Position numbers and translations under genes: made by a program. Below the pieces are notes generated by a model. That model saw only the letters and a program-made list of their open reading frames with translations. It was not told where the DNA came from and made no database searches. A DNA stretch of 64,000 nt from contig OZ244034.1 in assembly GCA_965215185.1 (NCBI GenBank), positions 1,632,001-1,696,000 of the forward strand. The letters run 5' to 3'. This DNA is from Acidimicrobiia bacterium (GTDB lineage: Bacteria; Actinomycetota; Acidimicrobiia; Spongiisociales; ZC4RG35). Shown here in pieces: positions 1 to 40,426 of this stretch. The number at the start of each line of letters is the position of its first letter. The first letter of the stretch is position 1.

Positions 1-109
1 AATAAATGGACCAGACATCTTGGTGGCCTGTGGGCCACCACCCCTGACCTGCGACTTCGATGGGACTCCACATGAGGCTCCACATTCAAACCGGGAAGGC
101 TCCACATTT
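1..109 (+). repeat. Array junction module, copy 1 (ATAAATGGACCA-7nt-TGGTGG...CTCCACATTT), cut by the window start
   Basis: Same sequence as the modules at 1.6, 7.2, 9.6, 21.4, 27.8 and 29.4 kb; ends ctccacattt at 100-109. Confidence 0.9.
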
Positions 110-278
110 AAGTAACCGCCGGGTTCTTTCCGCAAGGTAGCGGACCGTGGGTATATCCTGTTTCATAGCTGAAGTGGTTGGCACAGAACCGCCGCAGCAC
201 TGTCTCGCTGGACATCACCGGATCAGCGCTGGTGGCTTCCAATAGATTAGGTTGCCAACTCCGCAAACAGGTAGCAGA

Positions 279-686
279 TTACGGCAGGTACCTGATCCGA
301 TAGTCCCATCCGCCCCTTTGTGGATCCGACAGGTCATCGGCCTCTATCAGGATATCTTCGGCTAGTCCCCTCAAAGTGATGTTTCTACTAGCTGGGAGGT
401 CTCTTGGCCTGGCTACCACAATCATGCCTTTCATAAGGAGGCCCTGTTCTGCGACGAGTGCGCTGGCCGTATAGGGCATGGTGGTGCGGTCATGTGTCAG
501 TACCACCCGGTTGTTGCCGGAGGCCCACCGTAGGATTGCGGTGTCGGATGCTCCCGACAACCCGACCTCTCTGTCCTGCACCCGAACCAAGTCAACTGGT
601 AGGTTGTTGATGGATGCCAGCCTTGGCAGGGCTTCGGTCAGGTAGCCGTGAAAGTCCTCGTCCGTAACAAACCGGATGGGAGCCAT
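279..686 (-). CDS. DUF5615/VapC45-like PIN-fold toxin
   Basis: FVTDED N-terminus, GLSGASDxxILxWA, RVVLTHD motifs; directly downstream of a DUF433 gene. Confidence 0.8.
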   Translation of the reverse strand: MAPIRFVTDEDFHGYLTEALPRLASINNLPVDLVRVQDREVGLSGASDTAILRWASGNNRVVLTHDRTTMPYTASALVAEQGLLMKGMIVVARPRDLPASRNITLRGLAEDILIEADDLSDPQRGGWDYRIRYLP

Positions 687-692
687 GAGACT

Positions 693-1046
693 CTACGCGG
701 GTTGCGTTTTCGGCAGCCTGTACGGAAGGCCCTTTCTTGATCGCGTGTTCCCATCCACATGCGGAGCGATCTCGTCCATGACAACTATCGCTTGCTGTTC
801 GCTCCACTCCATGTACGCATCCACTTCTTCCCGACGGGTGTGGTGCCAATCTATGATCTGTTGGGCCTGGTCAAAACTCAAAGTGTCATATATGGCCACG
901 ACATCAGCGGCCCGCGTGTAGCCCTCGTACAGCACCGCTATGACGCTTTGTAGCTTCAGTCGGCTGCCCACGATCCGGACCATTCCGGTTTCTCGGTCCA
1001 CCCAAAGCGGCACCTTCTCATCGGGAGATATCTCTATCGGGCGCAC
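693..1046 (-). CDS. DUF433 (VapB45-like) antitoxin
   Basis: G-x-VRIVGSRLxLxxVI...Y...LS...I..Y/H pattern; GTG at 1046 after AGAGG; the longer track ORF runs into antisense of the transposase remnant. Confidence 0.75.
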   Translation of the reverse strand: MRPIEISPDEKVPLWVDRETGMVRIVGSRLKLQSVIAVLYEGYTRAADVVAIYDTLSFDQAQQIIDWHHTRREEVDAYMEWSEQQAIVVMDEIAPHVDGNTRSRKGLPYRLPKTQPA

Positions 1047-1079
1047 TGTGCCTCTTCTCGCTTGGAACTTGATTATACC

Positions 1080-1745
1080 AAAGACAAACAATGCTGTCAT
1101 GGCATGGTCAGCATCCCAGTCGACCTTCTCGACGCTTACCAGGACATTCCCTTCGGCACCCCCGCCTGGAAACGGAGCTACGGCCGTCGTAACCCCAGCG
1201 AGAAAACCTTCTCCATGATCAAGGACAAAGGCGGCCTGAAAGCCGGATGGTGCCGGGCTTTCGGTCTCGCCGATCACACCATCGGCGTGTTGGCTCTAGC
1301 CATCGCTCACAACCTCAAACAAACCTTCAGGGTCGAAAGAACCCAAACCCAAAAGCCCACCGCTCCGGCCAGGCCCAAGAGTCACCAACCGACCCGCAGG
1401 AACATCAGCGCCGACAGCCTCTCCGCACGGGCACCGCCCGCATAGGCACACAGCCCGCACCCGGCGCCGACAGTAAACCCCTTACTGTCGGCTTTGCCGC
1501 GCCCGGAAAACCAATACCGGCACCCCCAAACCTCCCAACGCACCCAAGAACCCCCACAGCACGCCGACAGGCACAAGAAAGGCCCGAAAACAGGCAAAAA
1601 AAGGAGAAAAACGACCTAACTGGTCCACTTATTTCGAATAAATGGACCAGAGGTCGCAGTGGCCTATGGGCCACCAACCCTGGCCTGGGCCTCCGCAGGG
1701 CCTCCGCATAGGACTCCACATTCAAACGAGGGTGGCTCCACATTT
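1080..1745 (+). mobile_element. 5'-truncated DDE transposase remnant plus junction module, copy 2
   Basis: Encodes YGRRNPSEKTFSMIK (Y-x2-R-x3-E-x6-K) ... ARAPP stop, then GCCGACAGTAA hairpin and the conserved end. Confidence 0.9.
1465..1496 (+). terminator. Hairpin after transposase stop (GCCGACAGTAA-loop-TTACTGTCGGC-TTT), repeated in many copies
   Basis: 11-bp stem followed by short T run; also near 7062, 9463, 27595, 29213, 30878, 38608, 40214. Confidence 0.55.
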
Positions 1746-1781
1746 GCCGGGCGATCTTCATAGGCAAGGCCCCCGAGCGGC

Positions 1782-2078
1782 TTGGGACATCCCATTAACA
1801 TGGGTTACATGGCATTGAGGCGAGACCGCAAGGTCGCCACCACTCATCCGCAGGCGGGGCTAGAGGAAGCCATTAGGGAGGAGCAGGATTTTCTTGATCG
1901 GCGCTATCCCGCCGATTGGGACTACTACGAAGAAGTGGTGGCGAAAAACCCGCCCAACGGTGAGGTGACAATACCGCACCGGATCACAGGAGACCCCGTG
2001 CGGATCGATTTGCTCACTGTCACACCAGACGAGATCATCGAACAGTGCGGATTCCCCGACCACCTGCAGGAGCAATCC
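1782..2078 (+). pseudogene. Truncated copy of family-A partner gene (full copy at 5280-5678)
   Basis: Identical to the reverse complement of ~5381-5678 until ...QEQS, then diverges. Confidence 0.8.
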
Positions 2079-2179
2079 GGAAACGCCGAGAGGACATCCA
2101 AGTGTCCGTCCGGCTCCGCATCGAACAATCGGGGGCATCCTGACTCGCGAACGGCCAATATCTCCCCCATTAGACACCC

Positions 2180-3430: not shown

Positions 3431-3799
3431 ATGGGCTTGTTACAAATCGGAGAGCATGAGAACGTGCCACTTGTAGTGGACCGCGAATATGGAATGATCC
3501 GTATCCCGGGAACCCGCCTGAAACTGCAAACGGTGATAGGCATGTATTACATGGGCTGCTCCAACCCCGAGGAGATGGCTCGAAGGTTCGACAGCCTGGA
3601 CGCGGAAACAGCGAAACGCATCTTAGATTGGTATCACACCCGACAAAAAGACGTAGATGCCTATATGGAATGGGTTGAGCTAAGAGCGGAAGCCGTCAGA
3701 GCCGAGCTAGAACCGCGTGTGGCCATGCACCGGGACCGTGCTCGGCGGAGAAGGCTAACCGGCAACCGTCACAGCAATGTTCGCACTGTTGGTGGATGA
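3431..3799 (+). CDS. DUF433 antitoxin (second, diverged paralog)
   Basis: VPLxVDRExGMIRIxGTRLKLQxVI, clearly homologous to 693-1046. Confidence 0.8.
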   Translation: MGLLQIGEHENVPLVVDREYGMIRIPGTRLKLQTVIGMYYMGCSNPEEMARRFDSLDAETAKRILDWYHTRQKDVDAYMEWVELRAEAVRAELEPRVAMHRDRARRRRLTGNRHSNVRTVGG

Positions 3800-3878: not shown

Positions 3879-3977
3879 CCAGAGGTCGCGGTGGCCTGTC
3901 GGCCATCACCCTTGACCTGCGGCGCAGTAGGGGCTCCACATAGGACTCCACATTCAAACTGGGAAGGCTCCACATTT
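3878..3977 (+). repeat. Junction module, copy 3 (no transposase remnant)
   Basis: ACCAGAGGTCGCGGTGG...CTCCACATAGGACTCCACATTCAAACTGGGAAGGCTCCACATTT. Confidence 0.9.
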
Positions 3978-4070
3978 GCTGGGCCGAAGCTCTGATAGCG
4001 GCGACTATATGATGTGTTAACCGGCATTGTCCGCACACTTACCGGCACACCGCCACTAGGACGGTTCCGG

Positions 4071-5824: not shown

Positions 5825-6352
5825 TCAATACCTCACCGATGGCCATTCCTCCCTCAACTCCCAAGAAAGGCTGTCTTTGCTAGTTCTCCCAACAAAAACG
5901 GCCATGATGCGATCCTGCCCTGTAGAGGAAAAGGAAACAACCGCCTGCAACCCTGACAGATACGCTTCTCTGCCTATGGCCCGGCATATTCGATGGTCGT
6001 CCGATGTCAGGTCCTGTTGGGACACTCCCACCGATTCCATGCTTGCTGGGATAGTGAGATCCAATACTCTTTCCAGGTCAACGCCGTAATTGTAGAGATT
6101 CTTGCGGGGCACCACTACGGGCACGGAATGGTTATGGGCAAGCCAAAGTGCCCTGTCGACCTGTTTGTCGTACTCAGCGACAGCGCAGGCCCTGGTTGTG
6201 CAGAGATACACAGTAAAGACTCCCTTGGGATTGAACCTGCCTCCATTCCACCAAGCACCCACCCCGCTGGACGGATCGTGCTCTGGGCTGCAATGCCTCC
6301 ACGCCACACCCCTATAGGATGTTGTTGGCAAGTCGGACAGCAAGAACCTCAA
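5825..6352 (-). CDS. RES-domain toxin
   Basis: WR...SGxGA..xGGRFNP...YL...A.AE...C.xIG..A...GLQA...S pattern. Confidence 0.85.
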   Translation of the reverse strand: MRFLLSDLPTTSYRGVAWRHCSPEHDPSSGVGAWWNGGRFNPKGVFTVYLCTTRACAVAEYDKQVDRALWLAHNHSVPVVVPRKNLYNYGVDLERVLDLTIPASMESVGVSQQDLTSDDHRICRAIGREAYLSGLQAVVSFSSTGQDRIMAVFVGRTSKDSLSWELREEWPSVRY

Positions 6353-6794: not shown

Positions 6795-7330
6795 CTCCGA
6801 AGGAGCCACCAAGTGGCATGCGAACCGGGCGCTGTGGCGGTGGGCACGAAACCGCAAACTCGACGACGGCGGCGGCCAGTTCTCCTGCTCCCAGTGCGCC
6901 GGGAGGGTCACCACCAACGCCAAAACCCGCAACCCTGACACGGTTCCCAACAAGACCGCTCCGTTCCTGCCCCAAAAACTTCGAACCGACCCGCCGCAAC
7001 ATCCTCGCCGACAGCCTCACCGCACGGGCACCGCCCGACTAGGCACACAGCCCGTACCCGGCACCGACAGTAACCCTTACTGTCGGCTTTAGCGCGCCCG
7101 AAAAACCCAAACCGGCCACCCAAACCTCCCAACGCACCCAGAACCCATCACAGCACGCCGACACAGGCACAAGAAATGCCCGAAAACAGGCACAAAAGGA
7201 AGAAAAACGACCTAACTGGGCCCACTTATTTGAGATAAATGGACCAGAGACCTTGGTGGCCTGTGTGCCACCACCCCTGACCTGGGACTCCGCAGGGGCT
7301 CCACATTCAAACCGGGAAGGCTCCACATTT
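6795..7330 (+). mobile_element. Transposase remnant with internal deletion (~6972) plus junction module
   Basis: NRALWRW...TAPFLP joined directly to the KNFEPTRR region; end ctccacattt 7321-7330. Confidence 0.9.
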
Positions 7331-7433
7331 GCTGGCCGATGCTCTGATGCAGAGGGCACCCATGGTGCGGGTGGAGGCCATTGCCTGCAATTTGGGACCC
7401 TCCCGCTCCTGGGAGGGTACTTATCATGAGGCT

Positions 7434-8020: not shown

Positions 8021-9094
8021 TTACCAGGGAGCGCCCCACCCGTGCGGCGGTGTCCCATCGGGATATAGCCAGTAGCGGTCAGACATTCTATCGTAAATGG
8101 ACGCAACCGTTCGGCGCACTCTGTTGATGCCTGTTCTAAGGTCTTCGGTGTTGGGTATCTCGCTCTTGGAAACCCGGCCTTCGACTATCGCCACGGCCGC
8201 TTCTGATATTGTGACCACAGCCTCTGTATATGTGACTGTGTTCTCCACCAATACAGATGCCAGGTTTGCTGTCTGATCGGCCACGGTGGCGGAGGCTCTG
8301 CCCAACTCCGCGGTGCTGTCCTCGCTTCGAGCCAGGTCTGCTCGGTGCGATGCCCCTGCTCTCCACTCTTCCACCCACTTCAGGTCAATGCCCTCGAGCC
8401 AGGAATCCAGATCGTCGAGTCCGTAGCGTTTCAGGTCGTCGTAGAGCGGCAGCAGGTCATGGGAGGTGACGCTGTACGGAGCCCCGATCAGGTGGCACAG
8501 CACAACGAAAGACTGTTCCACCGCCATGTGTAGATGAGAGTTGATGGTTCCCAGCCTGGCCCAGACCGCACTCCAGTATTCTTCTTGCTCCTGGTCGCGG
8601 GCAATTTTGATCTCCTCGCTGTCGGGAGTCATGTCGCGAAGGGCCGCATACAAGTCGGTGTATGTGTTGTTGAGAGAAGCCGCTACAGCGGCGGATCTTA
8701 TCCGTTGCGGGACCATCTTCTTATTCCAGTTGACGCCGGGTCCGGGTGGTTGATGCTTCAGCCATATACCCTCTCGGGAGGCGCTACTCTCCAATGTGGA
8801 GGGCCACTTTTTCCATGATAGCCATCCGGGCCAGTCCGTCAGCACGACTTCTACTTTCCACCCGCATGCTCGCCTGCCCCGTTTCAACAGCGCCAATTCC
8901 ATGCCGGCTCTTTCGGATGTTTCCACGTCGTCTACTACGCACATCAGGTCGATATCCGACCAAGGCCCAGCTTCGCCGCGTGCCACGGAACCGAACAACA
9001 TCACGCTCCCCGGGAGCACCTCGGCCGCCCGGCGGGCATCGTGGATCGTCGGGACGGGTCCGTCGCGGGCAGGGGCCTCAGTCATGATCTCCAT
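8021..9094 (-). CDS. Fused minimal nucleotidyltransferase (MNT)-HEPN protein, copy 1 of 2
   Basis: LFGSVARG...SDIDL N-terminus; SHDLxxL and R-x4-H (RAGASH) in C-terminal part. Confidence 0.75.
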   Translation of the reverse strand: MEIMTEAPARDGPVPTIHDARRAAEVLPGSVMLFGSVARGEAGPWSDIDLMCVVDDVETSERAGMELALLKRGRRACGWKVEVVLTDWPGWLSWKKWPSTLESSASREGIWLKHQPPGPGVNWNKKMVPQRIRSAAVAASLNNTYTDLYAALRDMTPDSEEIKIARDQEQEEYWSAVWARLGTINSHLHMAVEQSFVVLCHLIGAPYSVTSHDLLPLYDDLKRYGLDDLDSWLEGIDLKWVEEWRAGASHRADLARSEDSTAELGRASATVADQTANLASVLVENTVTYTEAVVTISEAAVAIVEGRVSKSEIPNTEDLRTGINRVRRTVASIYDRMSDRYWLYPDGTPPHGWGAPW

Positions 9095-9189: not shown

Positions 9190-9740
9190 CCCAGCGAGAA
9201 AACCATCTCCATGATCAAGGACAAAGGCGCACTCAAAGCCGGATGGTGCCGCTCTTTCGGTCTCGCCGCACACACCATCGGCGTGCTGACACTAGCTATT
9301 GCTCACAACGTCAAACAAACCCTCAGGATCGAGAGAACCAAAACAGAAAAGCCCACTTCTTCGGCCAGGCCGGAGAATTTCGAGCCTACCCGCAGGAAGG
9401 TCAGCGGCGACAGCCTCACCCCCAGGGCACCGCCCGACTAAGACACACCGCCTCCACCCGGTGCCGACAGTAAACCCTTACTGTCGGCTTCAGCGCGCCC
9501 GAAATGCCTTAACCGGCACCCCCAAACCTCCCAACCCACACAGAACCCCTCACAGCACGCCGACAGACACAAGAAATGCCCGAAAACAGGCACAAAAGGA
9601 AGAAAAACGACCTAACTGGCCCACTTATTTGAGATAAATGAACCAGACATCCTGGTGGCCTGTGGTCCACCACTCCTGACCTGGCCTCGGCAGGGGTTCC
9701 ACATAGGACTCCACATTCAAACTGGGAGGGCTCCACATTT
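9190..9740 (+). mobile_element. Transposase remnant plus junction module
   Basis: PSEKTISMIKDKG...PRAPPD; end at 9740. Confidence 0.9.
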
Positions 9741-9831
9741 GCTGGCCGAAGCTCTGATAGCAGCGGCTATGTGGTGTGATAACAGGCATTATTCGCACAC
9801 TTGCCGGCCACCGCCCCTAGGACGGTTCCGG

Positions 9832-11424: not shown

Positions 11425-11631
11425 AACCACGGGTGCATACCCAACGGGTTCAAGCTAGTCGCCCGCCTCCCCTATCCCCTACTGGAACATACGGTGTTAA
11501 TGTCCCATAGTGGGGCTGACTTTAGGTTTAATCCTGACGGGCGGTTGACCATGTTGCGTTCCGACCTGGCAACCCGGTGTCGCCTCGGAGCGGGCGACAA
11601 GCACCTGGGACGCGCCAAGCGTAAACGCTCT

Positions 11632-11674
11632 CTGACCTGCGGCTCAGCAGGGGGTCCTGAGGTCGCTCCACATT
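11632..11674 (+). repeat. Degenerate remnant of junction module
   Basis: CTGACCTGCGGCTCAGCAGGGG...GCTCCACATT. Confidence 0.5.
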
Positions 11675-11996
11675 CGGAAGTCTTTCGCCTTACCCGAAGC
11701 CCGAGACAAATCCTGAGAAGCCGGGCCGTCCAACCAGACGTTGGAGGTGTCATCAGTCCGCCCACCCAATACGTCGGTGCCCCGTCAACCGCCATGGAAG
11801 AGACGCTGTATCCGCATCTCGTGTCAATGTGAATCGCCACTCACTATCCAAATATCCCCTCCAACCCCTTTGTCCGATTGCGGATACCCTTCCCCACTCG
11901 TTGGTTAGCCGCGGCCCTAGGGCATACAGTGTTTTCGGTATAATGGTATTCGGATGATGACTGGATCGGGGGGAATCTACTCGGCTTCCACTATCT

Positions 11997-12890: not shown

Positions 12891-13188
12891 ACTTCACAGC
12901 GTAGCGGGCACCCAAGTGGGCGGGCCTCAATATAGCGAAGCATGGCCGGGCGGTGCTGGCCGTGGATTCACGGGAGTAGGGCAACCTTGTCGGGAGAATA
13001 ACCTTCGGACTCGCCCCGGGCCTTATACAAAAGAGGCTGGCTTGAGCGCAGCCTCAAACAGGCGCACCTTTCGCGAGACCCCTGCTAAGACCCAGGTCAG
13101 AGGTAGTGGACAACAAGCCCCAATGCGCCGAGAGGGTCTCACCAACACGCAACGCATGCTTGGAGACACTCTCGCTATTCTGTGAACT

Positions 13189-13663: not shown

Positions 13664-14176
13664 ATGATCGTTTGGGAGCATTATGTGATAAGAGGCCGTG
13701 CCCGTGGAGAGAACGATGCCAACCGGGTACGAGGCGAATTCTACCACTTCTTGAGGGAGGAATACGAGGGTCCTTTACCTCTGGGGGGACACACCCAATG
13801 GGAGGCGGGGGATATTCTGTGGGAACTGGCCGCCAATGCTGCGGAGTGGTCCAGGGAACCCTCCGCTGATGTTGCTTTGGAAGCATCGGAGGATTACGCG
13901 GCTATACATGTATCGGACCGGGGTGTAGGAGTCGAGCGGGCATTGGGGCGTCCTGTCGTGGAGGCTTTCCAACATGGAACTACCTCGTCTCGACGCAGCG
14001 GCAGAGGCAGGGGACTGAATTGTGTAACACAGATGACGATCAAGGGAGGTCGGTTTGTGTTGGAAAGCATAGATATTGCGGTTACTTGCATCAACGGGAA
14101 GGTAGCCTCCTCCGCTAAATCAGCCAGTCCCATCACGGGCACTCACACCACCTTCATTTTCTGTTCACCCACCTGA
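13664..14176 (+). CDS. HATPase_c (GHKL) domain protein
   Basis: ELAANAxE (N box), DxGxG (G1), GxGRGL (G2), GT near C-terminus. Confidence 0.75.
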   Translation: MIVWEHYVIRGRARGENDANRVRGEFYHFLREEYEGPLPLGGHTQWEAGDILWELAANAAEWSREPSADVALEASEDYAAIHVSDRGVGVERALGRPVVEAFQHGTTSSRRSGRGRGLNCVTQMTIKGGRFVLESIDIAVTCINGKVASSAKSASPITGTHTTFIFCSPT

Positions 14177-14255
14177 GTGGCTTGAAGATAACGATCTGGC
14201 CTTGTTTGGCAGCCTGTACGCCGGGGGATCAGTTGCCATCCTCCCGGAGGCGGAT

Positions 14256-14714
14256 ATGGCAAATCTTCCAGACAGCGACGCCATCAGGGAAAACTTGCAG
14301 CGACTACATCGCCAACTCGAAAGCGGTGATGCCGCGGCTATGATCGGAGTCGCTAAAGATCTTCTCGAATCCACCGCGAAGGTGGTGCTGAAAGCTGAAG
14401 GTGAAGCCGTAGGGCGCGATGCAAACCTGCCTTCCCTGATAGCACGAACCCACGAGACATTGGATATCCATACCAAGAACGCAACACATCACGATCCTGA
14501 CATCCAGTTAGCAGTCAAGAAAATAAGGGGTGGCCTCCAGCGCATAGCCTTGGGAGTCACTGACCTTAGGAACGCGGTTGGGACAGGCCACGGGCGGCTA
14601 ATGCCCAGCCCTTCTGGTCTAGTCGATGACGGACGACTAGCTGCTGAAGCGGCAGCGGCCTGGATCCGATCAATTCTTGCCGCCTACCCCAAACACACAA
14701 ACAAGACCATATAG
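14256..14714 (+). CDS. Abortive-infection family protein (Abi_C-like)
   Basis: IGxAKxLLESxxKxxL...LRNxxGTGHGR motif. Confidence 0.75.
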   Translation: MANLPDSDAIRENLQRLHRQLESGDAAAMIGVAKDLLESTAKVVLKAEGEAVGRDANLPSLIARTHETLDIHTKNATHHDPDIQLAVKKIRGGLQRIALGVTDLRNAVGTGHGRLMPSPSGLVDDGRLAAEAAAAWIRSILAAYPKHTNKTI

Positions 14715-14736: not shown

Positions 14737-15146
14737 GTCTGGGCTTTCGGTCTCGCCGCACACACCATCGGCGTGCTGGCACTAGCCATCGCCCACAACG
14801 TCAAAGAAACCATCGAGATCGAAGAAACCCAGACCGACAAACCTGTTCCTCCGGCCAGCCCCAAGCACTTCGAACCGACCCGCCGCAACATCCTCGCCGA
14901 CAGCCTCGCAGCACGGGCACCCCTAAGCCTCCCAACGCACCCAGAACCTCCCACAGCAGCCCGATAGGCAACCTCAAACCCCCAAGAACGGGCAAGAACA
15001 GGAAAAAACGGCCTAACTGGCCCACCTATTTGGGATAAATGGACCAGAGACCCGGGTGGCCTGTGGGACACTACCCCTGACCTGCGGCTCAGCAGAGGGT
15101 TCCGATGGCCGTACTTCCACATTTGAAAGGGGTGGTGCTCCACATT
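14737..15146 (+). mobile_element. Transposase remnant plus junction module
   Basis: FGLAAHTIG...HNVKETIEIEETQ; end ctccacattt at 15146. Confidence 0.85.
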
Positions 15147-15191
15147 TGTGAACACCCCACGGATGAGGGCTGGAAGCCATTTCGAGGTTAG

Positions 15192-23614: not shown

Positions 23615-23971
23615 ACATGCCACGGGGTATGGTCAGCATCCCAGCCGACCTGCTCGACGCCCACAACGTCAAGCAAACCATCGGGATCGAAAGAACCCAA
23701 ACCGAAAAACCCGCCCCGCCGGCCAGTCCCAAGAACTTCGAGCCGACCCGGCGCAACATTCTCGCTGACAGTCTCACCGCACGGGCGCCACCCGACTAGG
23801 CACACGAAATGCCCGAGAACGGGCAAAAACAGGAAAAAGTACCTAACTGGCCCACTTATTTGGGATAAATGGACCAGAGATCTTGGTGGCCTGTGGGCCA
23901 CCACCCCTGACCTGGGACTCCGCAGGGACTCCGCATGGGTCTCCACATTCAAACGAGGGTGGCTCCACATT
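23615..23971 (+). mobile_element. Internally deleted transposase remnant plus junction module
   Basis: VSIPADLLDA joined to HNVKQ; end ctccacatt ~23971. Confidence 0.85.
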
Positions 23972-24025
23972 CGTCTAACCTCGGGACACTGCCGTTTCGG
24001 GGATGAACGGACGCGGCGGCATCCA

Positions 24026-26833: not shown

Positions 26834-26834
26834 G

Positions 26835-27244: not shown

Positions 27245-27871
27245 CGCCAGCGTCCCATCCGACCCGCTCGACGCCTACCAGGACATTCCCTTCGGCACCC
27301 CCGCCTGGAAACGGAGCTACGGCCGCCGTAACCCCAGCGAGAAAACCTTTTCCATGATCAAGGACAAAGGCGGCCTGAAAGCCGGATGGTGCCGCTCCTT
27401 CGGTCTCGCCGCTCACACCATCGGCGTGCTGGCACTGGCCATCGCCCACAACCTCAAACAAACCCTCACGGTCGAAAGTACCCAAACCGAAAAACCCGCC
27501 CCTCCGGCCAGGCCCAAGAGTCACCAGCCGACCCGCCGCAACATCCTCGCAGCACGGGCACCGCCCGACTAGGCACACTTGCCGCACCCGCAGCACCGAC
27601 AGTAACCCCTACTGTCGGCTTTAGCGCGCCCGGACAACCCAAACCGGCACTCCCAAGCCTCCCAACGCACCCAGAACCCCTCAACGCACGCCGACAGGCA
27701 CAAGAGATGCGCGAAAACAGGCAACAATTGGAGAAAAACGGCCTAACTGGCCCACTTATTTGGGATAAATGGACCAGAGACTGGGTGGCCTGTGGGCCAC
27801 CACCCCTGACCTGCGGCTCCGCAGGGGCTCCACATAGGACTCCACATTCAAACCGGGAGGACTCCACATTT
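27245..27871 (+). mobile_element. Transposase remnant plus junction module
   Basis: Same left breakpoint as 18596; end at 27871. Confidence 0.9.
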
Positions 27872-27934
27872 GCCGGAGCCCCTATGGTGCCGCTTGGGGA
27901 GATGTGGAGAACGCATTTTGAATCCTGGTGGGTC

Positions 27935-28959: not shown

Positions 28960-29491
28960 TCGATGATCAAGGACAAAGGCGGCCTGAAAGCCGGATGGTG
29001 CCGCTCCTTCGGTCTCGCCGCACACACCATCGGCGTGCTGGCACTAGCCATCGCCCACAACGTCAAAGAAACCATCGAGATCGAAGAAACCCAAACCGAC
29101 AAACCTGTTCCTCCGGCCAGCCCCAAGCACTTCGACCCGACCCGCCGCAACATCCTCGCCGACAGCCTCACACCTAGGGCACCGCCCGACTAGGCACACT
29201 TGCCGCACCCGGCGCCGACAGTAACCCCTACTGTCGGCTTTAGCGCGCCCGGACAACCCAAACCGGCACCCCCAAACCTCTCAACGCACCCAAAACCCAC
29301 CACAGCACGCCGACAGGCACAAGAGATGCGCGAAAACAGGCAACAATTGGAGAAAAACGGCCTAACTGGCCCACTTATTTGGGATAAATGGACCAGAGGT
29401 CGTGGTGGCCTGTGGTCCATCACCCTTGACCTGGGACTCCGCAGGGGCTCCACATAGGACTCCACATTCAAACCGGGAAGGCTCCACATTT
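28960..29491 (+). mobile_element. Transposase remnant plus junction module
   Basis: MIKDKGGL...PRAPPD; end at 29491. Confidence 0.9.
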
Positions 29492-29584
29492 GCTGGGCCG
29501 AAGCTCTGATAGCGGCGACTACATGATGTGTTGACAGGCATTGTCCGCATACTTACCGGCCCACCGCCCCTAGGACGGTTCCGG

Positions 29585-30337: not shown

Positions 30338-31169
30338 CAACCGTGCCCTGTGGCGGTGGACACGAAACCGGAAACTCGACAACGGCGGCGGACAGTACTC
30401 GTGCCCCCAATGCGCCGGGAGGGTCACCACCAACGCCCCAACCCGCAACACCAGCGTCGTGCCAGCTGAAACCGCTCCGTTCCTGCCCATCGAAGACACA
30501 CAATGCTGTCATGGCAAGGTCAGCATCGGAGTAGACAAGCTCGATGCCTACCAAGACATCCCCTACGGCACTCCCGCGCACGACAAAAGCTACGGACGTC
30601 GCAACCCCAGCGAGAAAACCTTTTCGATGATCAAGGACAAAGGCGGCCTGACACCCGGATGGTGCCGCTCCTTCGGTCTCGCCGCACACACCATCGGCGC
30701 CCTAGCCCTAGCCATCGCTCACAACCTCAAAGAAACCATCGGGATCGAAAGAACCCAAACCGAAAAACCCGCCGCTCCGGCCAGGCCCAAAAGTCACCAG
30801 CCGACCCGCAGAAAAATCCTCGCCGACAGCCTCTCCGCACGGGCACCGCCCGACTAGGCATACGGCCGCTCCGCAGCACCGACAGTAACCCTTACTGTCG
30901 GCGTTAGCGCGCCCGGACAACCCAAACCGCCACCCTGCCACCCCGCCACCCCGAAGCCTCCCAGCCCACCCAGAACTCCCCACAGCACCCCGACAGGCAA
31001 CAGAAAACCTCCGAAAACAGGCAAAAACAAAAAAAGGACCTAACTGGCCCACTTATTTGCGATAAATGGACCAGAGGCCTTGGTGGGCTGTGGGCCACCA
31101 CCTCTGACCTGGGACTCCGCAGGGGCTCCACATAGGACTCCACATTTGAACCGGGGAGGCTCCACATTT
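30338..31169 (+). mobile_element. Transposase remnant plus junction module
   Basis: Same left breakpoint as 4823; end at 31169. Confidence 0.9.
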
Positions 31170-31225
31170 GGAATTTGTTCAACCTCCGCGGCCAACCCTG
31201 CGGCCTCGGGTCTGGGTGGCGCCGC

Positions 31226-35550: not shown

Positions 35551-35845
35551 ACAGCACGGCCTGTTGGCCACCACTTTTGACCTGGAACTCAATAGAGGTT
35601 CCAGCGAGGGCACCGCGATTAAATCGGGGGGTCGCCACGGTTGAAATACCATAAGTGGGCACCCACTTGAGGCCGTGTGTCTGGTTGTGTTGCTAGGGCA
35701 GCCTCCTTGCATAAGGCCCGGGCGAGCCTGAGGGATTTCCCCCCGACAAGGTTGCCCTATCCCCATGCATCCACGACCAGCGCCATCCGCCCATGTTTTG
35801 CGATATCGAGACCCGCCCACTTGGGCATCCGTTATGCTGTGATGT

Positions 35846-36190
35846 ATGGGCGAAGAGATTCTGAGGGAAATGGCTGGCGAAATGCTGGCAAGCATGACAG
35901 ATGCTGAGATCGCTGCCCTCCGCGAGGACGCTGAGATCATTGCTCGCTGCGAAGATCCGAGCGAGGATTTTGAGAACATAGACAGCCGCCCACTCACTCC
36001 CGAGGAGATCGCATGGGTGACCTCTCTGGCGGATGGCATGTTCTTCAATCTTTCTCCAGAAGGCCAGATTGACGACATCCTTCATCTGCCCGCACATGTT
36101 TCAGCGAGGCTCTTGGCCCAGATGAGCGCTTCAGAAAGAGAGAACATCCTTTCCCGCCTACCCGAAGAACTAGCGCAAAGCATCATATAG
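35846..36190 (+). CDS. Acidic hypothetical protein, copy 2 of 2
   Basis: Duplicate of 12522-12890. Confidence 0.65.
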   Translation: MGEEILREMAGEMLASMTDAEIAALREDAEIIARCEDPSEDFENIDSRPLTPEEIAWVTSLADGMFFNLSPEGQIDDILHLPAHVSARLLAQMSASERENILSRLPEELAQSII

Positions 36191-36529
36191 GCCGCCTCCG
36201 TGAGAGTGGCCTGATCCTATTTTCTGGCGAAGAACGGGTACTCCCGTCCGCCACCAAGCGATTCTCCGAATACGACATTCGCTATGTTCTACTCAACCCA
36301 ACGGGGTGGCAGGCCGATTTTCCCCGCAAGGGCAGACTCGCTGTTGGCGGGTGGACGAAAAGCAATAACGTTCCAATGGTCGTGCTGATCAACATGAGGA
36401 TGGGTTGGGTGTACCACTCTCAGAGATACGAACAGAAATACCAAAGGCTTTTCCCCTAGTGGCGGGTCTGCGAGTCAGCGAACAGGTAAGGGCGGAGGGA
36501 AGTGGCCTCTCCCTAAGTTAGAAGAAGTC

Positions 36530-36798
36530 ATAGCCCAAGCGGTGGCTCACAACCTGTGAGAAGCCAAAGGCTACGCCTACGGCACGCAGCCACTGGAAGA
36601 GGACGACAAGCAGCCGCCCGAAACCGAACCGCTCAGCACCCCCGAAACAGGCAAAAACGGAGAAACGGCAACTAGATGGCCCACACAAACAGCCACAAAT
36701 GGCCCAGGGGTGGTGGCCTGAGGGCCACCAAACCTGACCTGGGGCTCCGCAGGCGTTCCCGGGAGGGTTCCACATTCGAAAGGCCGAGGCTCCACATT
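36530..36798 (+). mobile_element. Diverged transposase tail plus junction module
   Basis: AVAHNL remnant, TGGTGGCCTGAGGGCCACCA hairpin, two CCACATT repeats. Confidence 0.75.
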
Positions 36799-36931
36799 TG
36801 GACAGATCCCAGTGGGCCATCCATGCCCCTCACATGGGGGCTGTATCGTCGGGGGCTTCCCTCGTGCTCAACCAGGGATTATGGATCAGATGCCATCCGA
36901 GAGGCACATCTTTGTGGTGTTGCTTAGCGTT

Positions 36932-38403: not shown

Positions 38404-38559
38404 AGCCTAGATGTGCTTCCCCAGGGATGCGGTTGACAGTCTGGGGTGTCTGGTTGTCGAGTGCCAACTACGGGAATACGACACAGCTCGGAAGGTGGTT
38501 GTCGGTGGATCGGAAAGGACTCGGCTTGGCTCTCCGGTGGTGTTTCACTTTCGGGGTTA

Positions 38560-38810
38560 CTCACCCCCAGGGCACCGCCCGACTAGACCACAACGCCGCA
38601 CCCGCAGCGCCGACAGTAAACCCTTACTGTCGGCTTTAGCGGCGCCCGAAAAGACCCAAACCAGCCGTCAAAGCCTCCCAACACACCCAGAAGTTCTCAC
38701 GGCAGGCCAACAGGCACTAGAAATGCCCGAAAACAGGCAAAAAGACAACAAAAATGGCCTAACTGGCCCACTTATTTTTGATAAATGGACCAGAGGCCGT
38801 CGGGTGGCCG
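38560..38810 (+). mobile_element. Transposase tail and right-end palindrome, CTCCACAT module missing
   Basis: TPRAPPD stop, hairpin, ATAAATGGACCAGAGG. Confidence 0.8.
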
Positions 38811-38899
38811 GTGGTGACATTCTGACCGACGGGGAGCCACTGAGATGTGTATACTCCGGCCTATGTCAATCCTGTGGATGGATGAGAGGCACAAACAAG

Positions 38900-39226
38900 A
38901 TGACTGAGAGCCAATCCTTAAGTGACGAGGCTCTACATAGCTTGGATGACGAGGCCGCCCTGATAGATGCGGAAGGACCCTGGGATCCTTACGACACCAC
39001 CTACACAGTCCCGCATCAGCGCGACATTGGCCGGGTGGTTGAGTTCGACCTGCGCACAGTCACGATCGACGACATAATCGTTCAGTGTGGATATCCCGAG
39101 AGCGCCAGGCGCGAACTCGTCGAAATCCATCGGCGCATTGCCTCCAACATGCTCCATTACCACAAGGGTTCTATCAAAAGAACCATTCCCCTATTGGAGG
39201 CAACCCTGCAGACCGGCGTTGCCTGA
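38900..39226 (+). CDS. Family-A antitoxin-like protein
   Basis: FDLRTVTIDDIIVQCGYP...RTIPLL. Confidence 0.65.
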   Translation: MTESQSLSDEALHSLDDEAALIDAEGPWDPYDTTYTVPHQRDIGRVVEFDLRTVTIDDIIVQCGYPESARRELVEIHRRIASNMLHYHKGSIKRTIPLLEATLQTGVA

Positions 39227-39523
39227 ATGCCGCTCGACTGGCCCAACCACCTACCCGAGCAGGAGATCGAGATCAGACCCTCGGCACTGGACTGGAATGT
39301 GATCGAGGAATACATATGGGAGGTTCTCCAGATTCCCCCGCACAGACTGGCGCGCATTACCCACGGGAAGACCCATGAGAGGAACGACCGTATTTACGGG
39401 AGTCGGAGCATCGTGGGTGTTGGTACAACCCGTAGGGGAGACCTATTACGCGTTGTCTTGCGTTTCGACAACAGGACAGGTTCCGACTACAACTGCCTGG
39501 TGTTTCACGCCGAATACCTCTAG
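39227..39523 (+). CDS. Family-B BrnT/RelE-like putative toxin
   Basis: MP..WP...VGxTRxGxLLRVVLR...CLVFHA. Confidence 0.65.
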   Translation: MPLDWPNHLPEQEIEIRPSALDWNVIEEYIWEVLQIPPHRLARITHGKTHERNDRIYGSRSIVGVGTTRRGDLLRVVLRFDNRTGSDYNCLVFHAEYL

Positions 39524-39529
39524 AGCGCC

Positions 39530-39755
39530 GTATGCCTGGGGTGATAGGAACCCAAGTGACGGTGCGTTGGCGGCTTGGAGACCCCACCATCGATATGGTG
39601 TCCGAGTCGGGGAGGCTGGTAGCCACGCATCGGAAGGCACCCAGGGGTCTGGGACGGGTGGTGCGTTTGCCCGAGCACACCTCGGCTTTGGTGAACGCCG
39701 TGTTGGCGGCGTTCACCACCAAACGGCCGTGCAAACCGAAACCGAACCGGCCGCC
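39530..39755 (+). pseudogene. IS21 IstA-like C-terminal fragment
   Basis: V.VRxRLG...VAxHRxAPxG.GxxVRLPEH..AL..xVLxxF...PC..K.NRPP as in actinobacterial IS21 transposases. Confidence 0.6.
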
Positions 39756-40426
39756 CACCACCGCCAAGACCCGCAAGCCCCGGACCGCGAACAGAAACGG
39801 ACCGCATCTGCCTATCGAAGACGAGGTCTGCTGTTTGGCTTTCGCCAGCGTCACCGTGGACCTGCTCGACTCCTTTCAACGCATCCCCTACGGCACGCTC
39901 GCTTGGAAACAGTCCTACGGCCGGCGCAACATCATCGAAAAAGCCAACTCAATGCTCAAAGACAAAGGCGGACTTAACGCCGGATGGTGCCGGGCTTTCG
40001 GCCTCGCCGCTCAAACCATCGGAGCCCTAGCCCTGACCGTAGTCCACAACCTAAAGGAACTGAAGCGCTTCCTCGGGCGCCAAAAACGCAACGGCACCGT
40101 CCCCAAGCCCGCTTTGAACGGAACAGGCCCTGCCAATCCTGCTGAGGAAGAACCCTCCGGCACCCTGTCAACCCGGGGCCCGCCCTAACCACCCTCAAGG
40201 GCCACCCGGCAGCACCGACAGTAACCCCCCTTACTGTCGGCTTTAGCGCGCCCGGAAAGACCAAAACAGGCACCCCAACACCCCAACAGGCCTCCCGGAA
40301 CGCCTACGCGCCGTCCGAAACAGCCTGACACACCCCAGCAACGGCTGAAAACCCCCCAAACCCTCCGAAAACACCAATTTTGCTGCTAAATGGCCAACAA
40401 AAACGAAATAAATCGCCCATTGGCCG
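39755..40426 (+). mobile_element. tmRNA-proximal, most diverged transposase remnant and right end
   Basis: YGRRNIIEKANSMLKDKGG...TRGPP, hairpin at ~40214, end colinear with other copies up to tmRNA CCA. Confidence 0.85.

What the first reader, a model, noticed from the sequence alone, without database searches (positions are those of the whole stretch)
1..40426. Integron-like tandem array of transposon-derived toxin-antitoxin/defence cassettes anchored at tmRNA
Seen: at least 40 kb of roughly 17 same-orientation units; junction modules end CTCCACATT(T) at 109, 1745, 3977, 7330, 9740, 15146, 21556, 22689, 23971, 27871, 29491, 31169 and 36798, mostly preceded by a 5'-truncated DDE transposase remnant and followed by different cargo, overwhelmingly TA-like pairs (DUF433/PIN, RES, MNT-HEPN, BrnT-like, Abi_C-like). 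No integrase, attC or intact transposase is in the window. Known: the YREK motif marks IS4/IS5-superfamily DDE enzymes, which usually scatter rather than stack. Inference: a family of non-autonomous cargo elements mobilised in trans that accumulates at one locus as a cassette library, analogous to a superintegron but apparently DDE-associated. I know no named system with this architecture.
Basis: partly seen in the sequence, partly recalled or inferred. Interest (0 to 1): 0.92.

Follow-up and report, generated by a model that had tools for sequence, protein, structure and literature searches.

The report
tRNA-homing transposon cassette array
An 83-kb stretch beside the tmRNA gene of an Acidimicrobiia bacterium is a head-to-tail pile of cargo-carrying transposons from an unnamed Tn5-like family that inserts at the 3' ends of tRNA and tmRNA genes, so these genes collect toxin-antitoxin and defence cassettes.

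Summary
The ~105-nt junction module recurs 16 times in the window, 15 in one orientation. The array runs 83.5 kb, from genome position 1,588,920 to the tmRNA 3' end; a relative with the same left flank has 6.1 kb there.

It is not integron-like. Each unit has a left end (short inverted repeat, CCACCCCTGACCTGGG, three CTCCACAT sites), cargo, a 5'-deleted DDE transposase remnant and a right end with two direct TAAATGGACCA sites. Neighbouring units are separated by five variable bases that behave like a target duplication.

Full-length copies (587-596 aa) lie at a tRNA-Met in this genome and at ssrA in relative G011. They carry a DDE/YREK signature, their best fold match is Tn5 transposase, and each follows a small gene resembling a catalytically dead tyrosine recombinase.

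In 8 of 10 loci from relatives, the transposase gene ends 200-320 bp from a convergent tRNA or tmRNA. The same genome has like arrays at tRNA-Lys, Leu, Ser and Met.

Best reading (confidence 0.62): an unnamed family of tDNA-homing Tn5-like cargo transposons whose repeated insertion and decay build the arrays. The mechanism is inferred; no transposition was observed.

The parts
40427..40780 (-). tmRNA gene (ssrA), tag AKPQMALAA. Its 3' end at 40427 abuts the right end of the last unit.
   Evidence: ARAGORN; Rfam RF00023, 157.5 bits; sequence
40854..41435 (-). smpB, the first conserved gene beyond the array
   Evidence: Homologues carry PF01668 and are named SsrA-binding protein
11..114 (+). Junction module: left end (LE) of unit 1
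   Evidence: nhmmer E 3e-29; alignment
1647..1752 (+). LE module of unit 2. The 5-nt spacer GTCGC before it is repeated before the next module.
3879..3984 (+). LE module of unit 3. The preceding right end is deleted down to CCAGAG.
7244..7337 (+). LE module of unit 4, with two instead of three CTCCACAT sites
9643..9747 (+). LE module of unit 5
11630..11677 (+). Partial LE module
   Evidence: nhmmer E 4.5e-5
13069..13121 (-). Partial LE module, the only one in inverted orientation. It belongs to the cassette 12401-13039, an inverted paralogue of 35699-36335.
15044..15152 (+). LE module of unit 7
21457..21560 (+). LE module of unit 8
22630..22688 (+).
   Evidence: nhmmer E 1.3e-6
23874..23978 (+). 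LE module of unit 10
27774..27876 (+). LE module of unit 11
29393..29498 (+). LE module of unit 12. Unit 12 is a 92% copy of unit 3's left part (3878-5134).
31071..31175 (+). LE module of unit 13
35558..35647 (+). Diverged LE module of a 1.15-kb one-gene unit with no transposase remnant
36705..36804 (+). LE module of unit 15
35758..36801 (+). Cassette that is 97.2% identical over 1048 bp to a cassette in the ssrA array of relative G011
   Evidence: ssrA-smpB of the same two genomes is 82% identical
20303..21340 (+). Longest transposase remnant of the window (residues 241-584 of 587; ORF 20417-21451, 344 aa)
   Evidence: tblastn 82% to the G011 full-length protein; Pfam DDE_Tnp_1_6 at 20.5 bits, below cut-off
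1080..1439 (+). Transposase remnant (residues 469-586), followed by a right end (RE) with two TAAaTGGaCCA sites
30339..30854 (+). Transposase remnant (residues 418-587). It has the same truncation point as the remnant at 4825-5133.
39730..40059 (+). Transposase remnant of a different subfamily in the tmRNA-proximal unit (60% identity). Its RE (two TAAATsGCC sites) ends 7 nt from the tmRNA.
279..686 (-). Cargo: PIN-like protein (DUF5615/PIN_10)
3431..3799 (+). Cargo: DUF433 protein
5825..6352 (-). Cargo: RES-domain protein, with upstream partner ORF 6353-6757. A second RES gene lies at 27935-28495.
8021..9094 (-). Cargo: 357-aa nucleotidyltransferase-domain protein, with a 92.8% copy at 37330-38403. 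Smaller NTases lie at 16604-16933 and 25758-26210.
13664..14714 (+). Cargo: HATPase_c protein (13664-14176) and Abi_C protein (14202-14714)
15184..16471 (-). Unrelated intact IS110-family insertion, 99.7% identical to two other copies in the genome
33806..35211 (-). Second IS110-like insertion. It is absent, with a precise joint 33807-35205, from contigs of three public runs.

Best explanation
The region is a tandem, head-to-tail array of cargo transposons from an unnamed family of the IS4/Tn5 DDE superfamily. These elements insert, in one orientation, at the 3' end of tRNA and tmRNA genes.

An autonomous element reads:
- left end: a G(G)TGG prefix, a short inverted repeat, CCACCCCTGACCWGGG, and 2-3 subterminal repeats;
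- cargo;
- a small accessory gene that resembles a catalytically dead tyrosine recombinase;
- a 590-aa transposase whose start overlaps the accessory gene's stop;
- right end: two direct 11-bp sites about 21 nt apart.

The right end lands 7-9 nt from the last base of the tDNA and leaves the gene intact. The target therefore survives, and further copies insert at the same 5 bp (a target duplication). Possibly they also insert beside the left end of a resident copy, which begins with the same GGTGG as the reverse complement of a CCA end. The result is RE-5 nt-LE junctions.

Older copies lose the accessory gene and the 5' part of the transposase, but keep both ends and their cargo. Cargo loss may be opposed where it is an addictive TA pair. 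These copies persist as non-autonomous cassettes. In principle they could move alone or as multi-unit blocks when a full-length copy of the same subfamily is present.

Shown: the anatomy, the tDNA association, the orientation, and the family and signature of the enzyme.
Inferred: the transposition chemistry, the role of the accessory protein, mobilisation in trans, and retention through TA addiction.
For: 1. tDNA homing.
- In relatives, 8 of the 10 best transposase loci (one per genome) have a convergent tRNA or tmRNA 200-320 bp after the transposase stop: Val-tac, Lys-ttt x3, Ser-tga, Ser-gct, Leu-taa and tmRNA.
- In this genome the same geometry holds at tmRNA, tRNA-Lys(ttt), Leu(cag), Ser(tga) and Met.
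- The tRNA-Lys(ttt) site is occupied in 9 of 17 genomes of the genus.

2. Orientation and clustering. Of 43 module hits, 39 lie in five arrays next to a t(m)RNA gene. Of those 39, 38 point toward it. Four hits are isolated.

3. Transposon ends.
- In the tRNA-Met array, all 8 junctions read CGCGAAGAC, then 11 nt, then GTCTTCGCG. That is a perfect 9-bp inverted repeat.
- The distal-most boundary shares GCTGTGGG with the tRNA-proximal junction.
- In the main family, 14 aligned junctions give TGGACCAGAG, 5 variable nt, then GGTGGC-CTGTGGGCCA. The inverted repeat matches at 8 of 10 positions.

4. Duplication-like spacer.
- In G011 the 5-mer GTCCG stands between RE and the tmRNA, and at 2 of 3 internal junctions.
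- In G000 two units are flanked by the same 5-mer on both sides: GTCTG/GTCTG and GTCGC/GTCGC.

5. Enzyme.
- D213, D336 and E511 are invariant, with the Y504-x2-R-x3-E signature of the YREK motif, in 16 sequences.
- The best PDB fold match is Tn5 transposase, 1muh_A, E 7e-4, probability 1.00.
- Intact copies: L004:432-2222 and L004:14946-16730 at tRNA-Met; L023:10555-12318 in the G011 ssrA array.

6. Accessory gene. It was found next to all 7 full-length copies held: 3 in the tRNA-Met array of G000 and 1 each in G011, G013, G016 and G007.

7. No other recombinase.
- Inside the 83.5-kb array the only tyrosine-recombinase hits are two fragments, 75-80 kb from the tmRNA.
- There are none in the window or in the Met, Leu or Ser arrays.
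- The single serine-recombinase hit in the genome lies elsewhere.

8. Mobility.
- One cassette is 97.2% identical between genomes whose ssrA-smpB is 82% identical.
- Array size is 83.5 kb here against 6.1 kb in G004, next to a left flank that is 95% identical.
Against: - No transposition event, empty site or excised form was seen. Every tRNA-Lys and tRNA-Met site I fetched was occupied by something or was not syntenic, so the exact cut positions and duplication length are not fixed.
- The 5-nt spacers differ between most junctions of this genome. Simple repeated insertion at one site does not predict that. It needs old age with drift, block transposition, or insertion beside resident left ends.
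- Two adjacent identical pairs among about 15 spacers is only modestly unlikely. My rough estimate is about 0.05; it was not computed in a call.
- The main-family inverted repeat is short and imperfect, and on the left end it lies 6 nt inside the tip.
- The transposase model is mediocre (pLDDT 64; TM 0.31-0.39 to Tn5), and Pfam DDE_Tnp_1_6 scores are below the cut-off.
- The integrase-like reading of the accessory protein rests on weak signals: model pLDDT 53, Foldseek E at least 0.15, hhalign probability 33%.
- The motif CTGACCWGGG inside the left end is also part of what look like att sites of tyrosine-integrase islands at other tRNAs. G004's ssrA island carries a 12-nt ssrA direct repeat. 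So integrases do act at the same sites.
- Public-run contigs gave no well-supported joint that removes or adds a unit.
Confidence: 0.62

Rival explanations
1. Tandem genomic islands made by tyrosine integrases (Islander-type tDNA islands, with accretion). The junction modules would be att sites, and the DDE gene a conserved passenger or a decayed IS.
For: - CTCTGACCWGGG lies 10-30 nt downstream of many tRNAs here: three tRNA-Ala genes, Val, SeC, Met and three tRNA-Leu genes.
- It also lies beside displaced tRNA 3' fragments close to PF00589 genes.
- The same core sits in every left end.
- G004's 6.1-kb ssrA island ends in a 12-nt copy of the ssrA 3' end.
- Two integrase fragments lie in the distal part of the array.
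- The accessory protein looks integrase-like.
Against: - No copy of the ssrA 3' end (12-mer with up to 1 mismatch) lies at a unit junction of the G000 array. The only three such hits within the array's span are on the opposite strand and away from junctions.
- No integrase hit lies in the window or in the Met array, whose units are otherwise intact.
- The accessory protein lacks a tyrosine at the expected place in all 7 copies.
- The left end is not tRNA-like beyond its first 5 nt; its alignment scores against tRNA 3' halves fall within the shuffled range.
- The ends carry inverted repeats and repeated sites typical of transposons.
Confidence: 0.15
2. A true cassette-capture platform (integron-like, the first reader's idea). 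One recombinase encoded elsewhere would insert and excise single cassettes at the junction modules.
For: - Same-orientation short cassettes are separated by a conserved about 105-nt module.
- Cargo is rich in TA-type genes, as in chromosomal integrons.
- Cassette copies recur within the array at 85-97% identity.
Against: - No integron-type integrase or platform end was found. The array ends at a tmRNA gene on one side and in unrelated genes on the other.
- The module is not an imperfect palindrome. It is split between the right end of one element and the left end of the next.
- Each unit carries its own transposase remnant, which integron cassettes do not.
- The same structure occurs at five or more tDNAs.
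Confidence: 0.05
3. An ordinary, non-targeted IS family whose copies decayed in a tolerant region. The array would have grown mainly by unequal homologous recombination between repeats.
For: - There are in-array duplications at 85-97% identity, a 100% identical inverted 345-bp duplicate (1734-2078 and 5382-5726), and unrelated IS110, IS1182 and IS3-like insertions in the same region.
Against: - The tDNA adjacency and fixed orientation in 8 of 10 loci of other genomes, and at five tDNAs here.
- No match to a named IS family model: NCBIfam gave none, and Pfam only below cut-off.
- A genuine IS1182 transposase in the same array scores E 9e-18 on the same Pfam model, and also matches DUF772.
Confidence: 0.08

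Closest known systems
Tn7-like transposons that home to attachment sites downstream of tRNA genes, including type V-K CRISPR-associated transposons
   Same: - They are DDE transposons with orientation-specific insertion just downstream of a tRNA gene, and the gene stays intact.
- Their ends carry several subterminal transposase-binding repeats.
- Their cargo is rich in defence and TA genes (PIN, RES, ParE, nucleotidyltransferases).

[quoted passage not shown]
   Different: - The enzyme here is one Tn5/IS4-like protein, not TnsA/TnsB/TnsC with TniQ/TnsD. No such Pfam domains were found in the ORFs of an intact unit.
- There are no CRISPR parts.
- The candidate targeting subunit is a 146-aa integrase-like protein.
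- The spacer is 5 nt, the same length as the Tn7 target duplication as I recall it (no call supports that figure). So spacer length does not tell the two apart.
- Arrays of 16 or more units suggest no target immunity.
tDNA genomic islands made by site-specific recombinases (Islander-type islands; ssrA islands of Dehalococcoides)
   Same: Tandem islands lie within about 100 kb downstream of ssrA, differ between strains, and include members without their own recombinase.

   Basis: PMC3146451, passages read; PMC4383910, abstract in the search listing.
   Different: - Those islands are bounded by direct repeats of the ssrA or tRNA 3' end (20 bp in Dehalococcoides), and they encode serine or tyrosine recombinases.
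- The G000 array has no ssrA repeat at its unit junctions and no intact recombinase of these kinds.
Chromosomal integrons (superintegrons)
   Same: A long one-orientation array of short cassettes, many with TA genes, separated by a recurring site.
   Different: No IntI, attI, attC or common promoter. Each unit has its own transposon ends and a transposase remnant. There are several arrays per genome, each at a tDNA.
Non-autonomous IS derivatives with passenger genes (mobile insertion cassettes, MITE-like elements)
   Same: Both IS ends are kept, the transposase is lost or truncated, and one or a few passenger genes lie between. The 1.15-kb unit at 35558-36704 fits this. The concept is recalled, not read here.
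   Different: Those elements scatter. These are confined to tDNA 3' ends and stack head to tail.
Dada DNA transposons of eukaryotes
   Same: DDE transposons with strict targeting of tRNA and other small-RNA genes (PMC3706591; title and abstract in the search listing).
   Different: They are eukaryotic, belong to another transposase superfamily, insert inside multicopy RNA genes, and are not described as cargo arrays in the text I saw.

Membership tests
IS4/Tn5 superfamily DDE transposase | Catalytic D, D, E triad with the Y-(2)-R-(3)-E-(6)-K signature around the E | tested here: met
   D213, D336, E511, Y504 and R507 are invariant in 16 aligned sequences. The consensus reads YAGRNPVEGVNSMIK. 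The window remnants read YGRRNPSEKTFSMIK.
IS4/Tn5 superfamily DDE transposase | Tn5-like fold (RNase H core with an insertion domain between the second D and the E) | tested here: inconclusive
   The best PDB match is Tn5 transposase 1muh_A (E 7.4e-4, probability 1.00). However TM is only 0.31-0.39 and model pLDDT is 64. A profile search of PDB sequences found nothing.
IS1182 family (Pfam DUF772 + DDE_Tnp_1 + DDE_Tnp_1_6) | N-terminal DUF772 and full-length DDE_Tnp_1/DDE_Tnp_1_6 matches above the cut-off | tested here: not met
   Only the last about 65 positions of DDE_Tnp_1_6 match, at 20-25 bits (cut-off 25.1). There is no DUF772 match and no NCBIfam match. A genuine IS1182-type gene in the same array meets all three.
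Classical insertion sequence or transposon | Terminal inverted repeats | tested here: met
   tRNA-Met subfamily: GTCTTCGCG and CGCGAAGAC at 8 of 8 junctions. Main subfamily: CTGTGGGCCA against TGGACCAGAG, 8 of 10 positions.
Classical insertion sequence or transposon | Fixed-length target-site duplication flanking each copy | tested here: inconclusive
   G011 has the same 5-mer at the tmRNA junction and at 2 of 3 internal junctions. Two G000 units have the same 5-mer on both sides, while the other junctions differ. No empty site was available.
Integron | IntI-type tyrosine integrase with attI and a promoter at one end of the array | tested here: not met
   PF00589 hits inside the array are two fragments, at 1,592,303-716 and 1,598,061-468. 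The ends of the array are a tmRNA gene and unrelated genes.
Integron | attC sites (imperfect palindromes with R''-L''/L'-R' boxes) between cassettes | not tested
   No attC model was run. By eye the module is a conserved directional sequence split between two transposon ends. Rfam found only the tmRNA in 1-42000.
tDNA island made by a site-specific recombinase | A displaced copy of the tDNA 3' end at each island boundary | tested here: not met
   No 12-mer copy (up to 1 mismatch) of the ssrA 3' end lies at a unit junction of the G000 array; the three hits within its span are opposite-strand and non-junctional. Such a copy is present in G004's different 6.1-kb island.
Tn7-like transposon | TnsB (rve-type) transposase with TnsC ATPase and a TniQ/TnsD target selector | tested here: not met
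   None of the 10 ORFs scanned in the tRNA-Met array, including the intact units, hit these families. The only rve hit in the window is a 131-aa fragment below the cut-off. No dedicated TnsC or TniQ search was run.
Tyrosine recombinase (accessory protein) | Catalytic-domain fold with the R-K-H-R-H/W-Y residues | tested here: inconclusive
   The leading Foldseek ranks are nearly all tyrosine recombinases (XerA, Cre, XerD, XerH, P2 Int, IntI, Tn1549 Int), but E is at least 0.15 and the model pLDDT is 53. hhalign against 15 integrases of this genome gives P 4.6e-4, 113 columns, probability 33%. No Tyr is conserved after the AGPLS motif in the 7 copies. Assigning the motifs to the integrase boxes is my own reading.

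The most novel reading that the evidence does not exclude
A previously undescribed two-gene transposition module: a Tn5-like DDE transposase plus a catalytically dead tyrosine-recombinase derivative that acts as target or end selector. It homes to the 3' terminus of any tRNA or tmRNA gene. Each element's left end begins with a CCA-end look-alike (GGTGG), so every inserted copy creates a new landing site. The arrays would then be self-propagating cassette libraries of TA and defence genes that can also move as multi-unit blocks between species.
Probability: 0.3. Interest if true: 0.85.

Novelty: new variant of a known kind. Interest (0 to 1): 0.78.

Why it matters
Site-specific 'safe-harbour' insertion next to tRNA genes is known for integrase islands and for multi-protein Tn7-like elements. 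A single Tn5-like enzyme with one small helper doing the same job would be a much simpler natural system for orientation-specific, gene-sparing insertion at a conserved site. It would be of interest for mechanism (how a Tn5-type enzyme gains target specificity) and as a possible tool.

It would also explain how some Acidimicrobiia devote a sizeable part of a 3.1-Mb genome to TA and defence cassettes parked behind tDNAs. My sum of the spans between each t(m)RNA gene and its farthest same-orientation end is about 190 kb, or about 6%; it is taken. It would give a second route, besides integrons, to long one-orientation cassette arrays.

The family has 252 clusters at E up to 1e-30 in 1.84 billion representative proteins. 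The 10 clusters I looked up carry only the names 'hypothetical protein' or 'transposase'. Such arrays are therefore probably being overlooked in metagenome-assembled genomes.

Tried and rejected
- Left end as a tRNA 3'-half mimic. Local alignment of the 44-nt left ends of both subfamilies against all 50 t(m)RNA 3' halves scored within the range of 200 shuffles. Rejected beyond the first 5 nt.
- 11-bp target duplication including 6 nt of the tmRNA end. Real sequence from G011 shows GTCCG-GGTGG both at the tmRNA and at internal junctions. The GGTGG is therefore element-encoded or tmRNA-encoded, and only 5 nt behave as a duplication.
- Empty sites. The tRNA-Met next to the intact elements is an extra copy with no syntenic counterpart in 16 relatives. 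The tRNA-Lys(ttt) flank held some element in all 12 relatives fetched, and the one candidate 'native' flank (G012/G014) is itself a 116-nt shared repeat.
- Left end of the Lys-type full-length elements. It was not found within 10-12 kb.
- Public runs. Contigs of 4 runs from 3 studies were laid on window 21000-40900. They are short. Joints between modules have sides of 21-30 nt and may be repeat artefacts. They give no support for or against excision or cassette polymorphism. Only the IS110-like empty site (33807-35205) is well bridged.
- NCBIfam on 20 unnamed cargo ORFs: 0 of 20 had a hit.
- Sequence-profile searches of the PDB for both proteins found nothing meaningful.
- The plasmid collection gave one weak hit, 24% identity, to a Streptomyces hypothetical protein.
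- Literature. Searches found no paper describing an IS4/Tn5-like transposon that targets bacterial tRNA or tmRNA 3' ends, or such arrays. ISfinder cannot be searched here, and subscription journals and supplementary files were not seen.

Full report
**Observation.** The motif CTCCACATT occurs 26 times in the window against 0.41 expected by chance. It belongs to a roughly 105-nt module. A profile of 11 copies finds 16 hits in window 1-40426: 15 on the + strand and one partial copy on the - strand. The tmRNA gene lies at 40427-40780 on the - strand, with its 3' end facing the array. Rfam finds no other RNA family in 1-42000.

**Extent of the array.** The window lies at 1,632,001-1,696,000 of a single 3.12-Mb contig. 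Modules continue leftward to 1,590,621, giving 23 hits of which 22 are on the + strand. Relative G004 shares the left flank at 95% identity up to G000 position 1,588,919. It then has 6.1 kb before its tmRNA gene, where G000 has 83.5 kb.

**Anatomy of a unit.** Fourteen aligned junctions give this consensus:

...CCTAACTGGCCCACTTATTTGgGATAAATGGACCAGAG - 5 variable nt - GGTGGCCTGTGGGCCACCACCCCTGACCTGGGACTCCGCAGGGGCTCCACATAGGACTCCACATTCAAACCGGGAAGGCTCCACATTTG

- The part before the variable bases is the right end (RE) of the unit on the left. It carries two direct TAAaTGGaCCA sites about 21 nt apart and follows a transposase remnant.
- The part after the variable bases is the left end (LE) of the next unit. 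It is followed by cargo.
- TGGACCAGAG and CTGTGGGCCA form an 8-of-10 inverted repeat.

**Transposase remnants.** The window's remnants start at residues 241 to 541 of a 587-aa protein, and most run to its end. None reaches the first 240 residues.

**Full-length copies and a sharper picture of the ends.** tblastn found three longer copies directly next to a tRNA-Met at 3,084,044-118: two intact (596 and 594 aa) and one frameshifted.

- That array runs to at least 3,113,451 and has 8 junctions.
- All 8 read CGCGAAGAC + CCCnnnGTGGG + GTCTTCGCGACCACCCCTGACCAGG. That is a perfect 9-bp inverted repeat around an 11-nt gap.
- At the tRNA the same right end is followed by CCCGCTG and then the tRNA's own TGGGCCCGG.
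- The distal-most left end is preceded by ATGGCTGTGGG, which shares GCTGTGGG with the proximal junction.

**An intact main-family element.** An intact copy of the window's subfamily lies in the ssrA array of relative G011, at L023:10555-12318 (587 aa). It is 34% identical to the Met type and 82% identical to the longest window remnant.

**The enzyme.**

- Sixteen aligned homologues keep D213, D336 and E511, and the Y504-x2-R507-x3-E511 signature. A CPQC...CC motif lies in the stretch between the second D and the E.
- Pfam sees only the tail of DDE_Tnp_1_6, below its cut-off. NCBIfam sees nothing.
- A genuine IS1182-type gene elsewhere in the array scores E 9e-18 on the same model, and also matches DUF772.
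- An AlphaFold model (pLDDT 64) matches Tn5 transposase best: 1muh_A, E 7.4e-4, probability 1.00, TM 0.31-0.39.
- The family has 26 close relatives among 5.8 billion protein clusters. A profile search of 1.84 billion representatives gives 252 clusters at E up to 1e-30 and 1,356 at E up to 1e-3, many of them short C-terminal pieces.
- In 10 clusters looked up, the only public names were 'hypothetical protein' and one 'transposase', all from Acidimicrobiia or unclassified bacteria.
- SmpB neighbours also place the organism in Acidimicrobiia.

**An accessory gene.** Upstream of every full-length transposase I hold (7 copies) lies an ORF whose stop overlaps the transposase start. Its last ~146 residues are conserved, at 43-51% identity across subfamilies and genomes.

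- It has no Pfam or NCBIfam match.
- Its motifs (GAGL.g.E; RGr..R.VPiR; S.RRARSTWL.aHl.AGT.L..L..iAGPLS) read to me like boxes I and II of tyrosine recombinases, without the catalytic Tyr.
- A low-confidence model (pLDDT 53) draws mainly tyrosine recombinases among its leading Foldseek ranks, though none better than E 0.15.
- hhalign against 15 integrases of this genome gives P 4.6e-4 over 113 columns in the expected register, at 33% probability.
- I treat this as a lead, not a finding. No copy of this gene lies in the main array of G000.

**Targeting of tDNA 3' ends.**

- In this genome the transposase genes or remnants nearest a tDNA are convergent with it. This holds at the tmRNA, tRNA-Leu(cag), tRNA-Ser(tga) and tRNA-Met.
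- The right-end sites stand 7-9 nt from the last base of the tmRNA, tRNA-Lys(ttt), tRNA-Leu(cag) and tRNA-Ser(tga).
- Of the 10 best loci in relatives (one per genome), 8 have a convergent tRNA or tmRNA 200-320 bp beyond the transposase stop: Val-tac, Lys-ttt x3, Ser-tga, Ser-gct, Leu-taa and tmRNA. The same two-site right end lies next to it in 7 of the 8. The remaining 2 are an internal unit of an array and one locus with no tRNA in reach.
- tRNA-Lys(ttt) is occupied in 9 of 17 genomes of the genus.
- The ssrA flank carries the same right end in G011, G003 and G006.
- Of the 43 module hits in G000, 39 lie in five arrays beside a t(m)RNA gene. Of those, 38 point toward it.

**The five variable bases.**

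- In G011 the true sequence reads RE-GTCCG-GGTGGAGG at the tmRNA, and RE-GTCCG-GGTGGCC at two of three internal junctions. The third has GTCGC.
- G003 has RE-GCCCT-GGTGGAGG and G006 has RE-GCCTT-AGTGGAGG.
- In G000 two units have the same 5-mer on both sides (GTCTG/GTCTG and GTCGC/GTCGC). The other junctions differ, but follow a loose RYCNK pattern.
- This is what a 5-bp target duplication immediately 3' of the tDNA end would give, followed by drift or by import of multi-unit blocks. Without an empty site it is not proven.
- The left end itself begins with the GGTGG that also ends the tmRNA in reverse complement. It could therefore serve as a second landing site. Beyond those 5 nt it does not resemble tRNA.

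**Other recombinases.**

- PF00589 has 29 hits in the genome. Only two fragments lie in the array, both 75-80 kb from the tmRNA, and none lies in the window or in the Met, Leu or Ser arrays.
- The single resolvase hit in the genome lies elsewhere.
- No copy of the ssrA 3' end lies at a unit junction of the G000 array.

Integrases clearly do use the same sites in this lineage:

- CTCTGACCWGGG stands 10-30 nt downstream of many tRNAs and beside displaced tRNA fragments near integrase genes.
- G004's ssrA island ends in a 12-nt ssrA repeat preceded by that motif.
- The same core inside every left end of the DDE elements is unexplained. One possibility is that the integrase-like accessory protein binds it.

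**Cargo.** Of 47 cargo ORFs scanned in the window, 18 have a Pfam hit at E up to 0.01.

- Ten are TA or abortive-infection types: PIN_10/DUF5615, DUF433, RES x2, NTP_transf_2 x4, Abi_C and weak Abi_alpha.
- Three are parts of other mobile elements: IS110 x2 and an rve fragment.
- Five are others: HATPase_c, DUF7689, a UvrD_C fragment and two weak MgtE_N hits.
- None of 20 unnamed ORFs matched NCBIfam.
- The part of the array left of the window carries larger genes: a hybrid histidine kinase, an fn3-repeat protein, an SLH protein, a YscW-like lipoprotein and an IS1182-type IS.

**Signs of movement.**

- Cassette 35758-36801 is 97.2% identical over 1048 bp to one in G011's ssrA array. The ssrA-smpB genes of the two genomes are only 82% identical.
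- Units recur within the array at 85-97% identity. Examples are 3878-5134 with 29392-30648 (same transposase truncation point) and 7978-9163 with 37286-38474.
- Public-run contigs confirmed that near-identical cargo exists in samples of three studies. They showed an empty site for the IS110-like element at 33807-35205. They were too short to show gain or loss of units.

**Comparison with what is known.**

- In operation, the nearest parallel is Tn7-like elements. These integrate downstream of tRNAs by way of dedicated target selectors and carry defence and TA cargo (PMC8649781, passages read). The proteins here are different.
- In appearance, the nearest parallel is the tandem ssrA islands of Dehalococcoides. 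They lie within 100 kb of ssrA and are bounded by 20-bp ssrA repeats, with serine recombinases (PMC3146451, passages read). Tyrosine-integrase tDNA islands are similar (PMC4383910, abstract in the search listing). This array lacks their defining repeats and enzymes.
- The integron analogy fails on every defining part I could test.
- Four literature searches found no description of a Tn5/IS4-like element homing to bacterial tDNA 3' ends.

**Verdict.** The 'integron-like' part does not. The most likely mechanism is tDNA-3'-end homing transposition by an unnamed Tn5-like family with a small accessory protein (confidence 0.62). I rate it a new variant of a known kind, the site-homing cargo transposon, at interest 0.78.

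Noticed in passing
Genome-wide, e.g. 10-30 nt downstream of tRNA-Ala (1,302,999; 2,523,096; 2,993,081), Val (1,473,181), SeC (1,541,240), Met (1,782,349) and Leu (622,261; 818,157; 834,106); also beside displaced tRNA 3' fragments at 21,726, 968,292, 2,582,841 and 2,628,883: The motif CTCTGACCWGGG stands at a short, variable distance downstream of many tRNA genes. It also stands next to displaced tRNA 3' fragments near tyrosine-integrase genes, so it is probably part of the att sites of an integrase-island family. The same core lies inside the left end of the DDE elements. The link is unexplained.
   Followed up: partly
Genome 3,084,044-3,084,118 (L004:144-218): The tRNA-Met that anchors the array with intact elements is a second copy, 99% identical to the one at 858,714. 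Its upstream flank is not next to a tRNA-Met in any of 16 relatives. The tRNA copy itself may have been brought in by a mobile element.
   Followed up: partly
Window 33806-35211: The IS110-like insertion is absent, with a precise joint 33807-35205, in contigs of three public runs. It is a recent, polymorphic insertion unrelated to the array's own family.
   Followed up: yes
Window 1734-2078 and 5382-5726: A 345-bp stretch that starts in a left-end module is present twice at 100% identity in inverted orientation. This is either a very recent rearrangement or an assembly artefact.
   Followed up: no
L029 (G003 ssrA flank), about 280-6500: A motif recurs every 366 nt at least 17 times. This indicates a long tandem repeat, perhaps a repeat protein gene, inside the ssrA-linked region of relative G003.
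   Followed up: no
Window 40427-41440 compared with genome 1,581,334-1,588,919: Between G000 and G004 the ssrA-smpB stretch is 83% identical, but the left flank of the array is 95% identical. The two sides of the array have different histories (recombination or transfer).
   Followed up: no
Window 20303-21451; G011 L023:14003-14938 and 18852-19787: A shortened form of the transposase gene, lacking about the first 240 residues, is kept as an open frame of 311-412 aa in several copies in two species, with the same 5' breakpoint. It may be a propagated deletion derivative, or a shorter product with a role of its own.
   Followed up: partly
Window 4071-4760, 9832-10515 and 29585-30274: A pair of small ORFs (100 and 120-122 aa) with no Pfam or NCBIfam match occurs three times in the array at 85-92% DNA identity, directly after a left end. 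It is a candidate new TA-like pair.
   Followed up: partly
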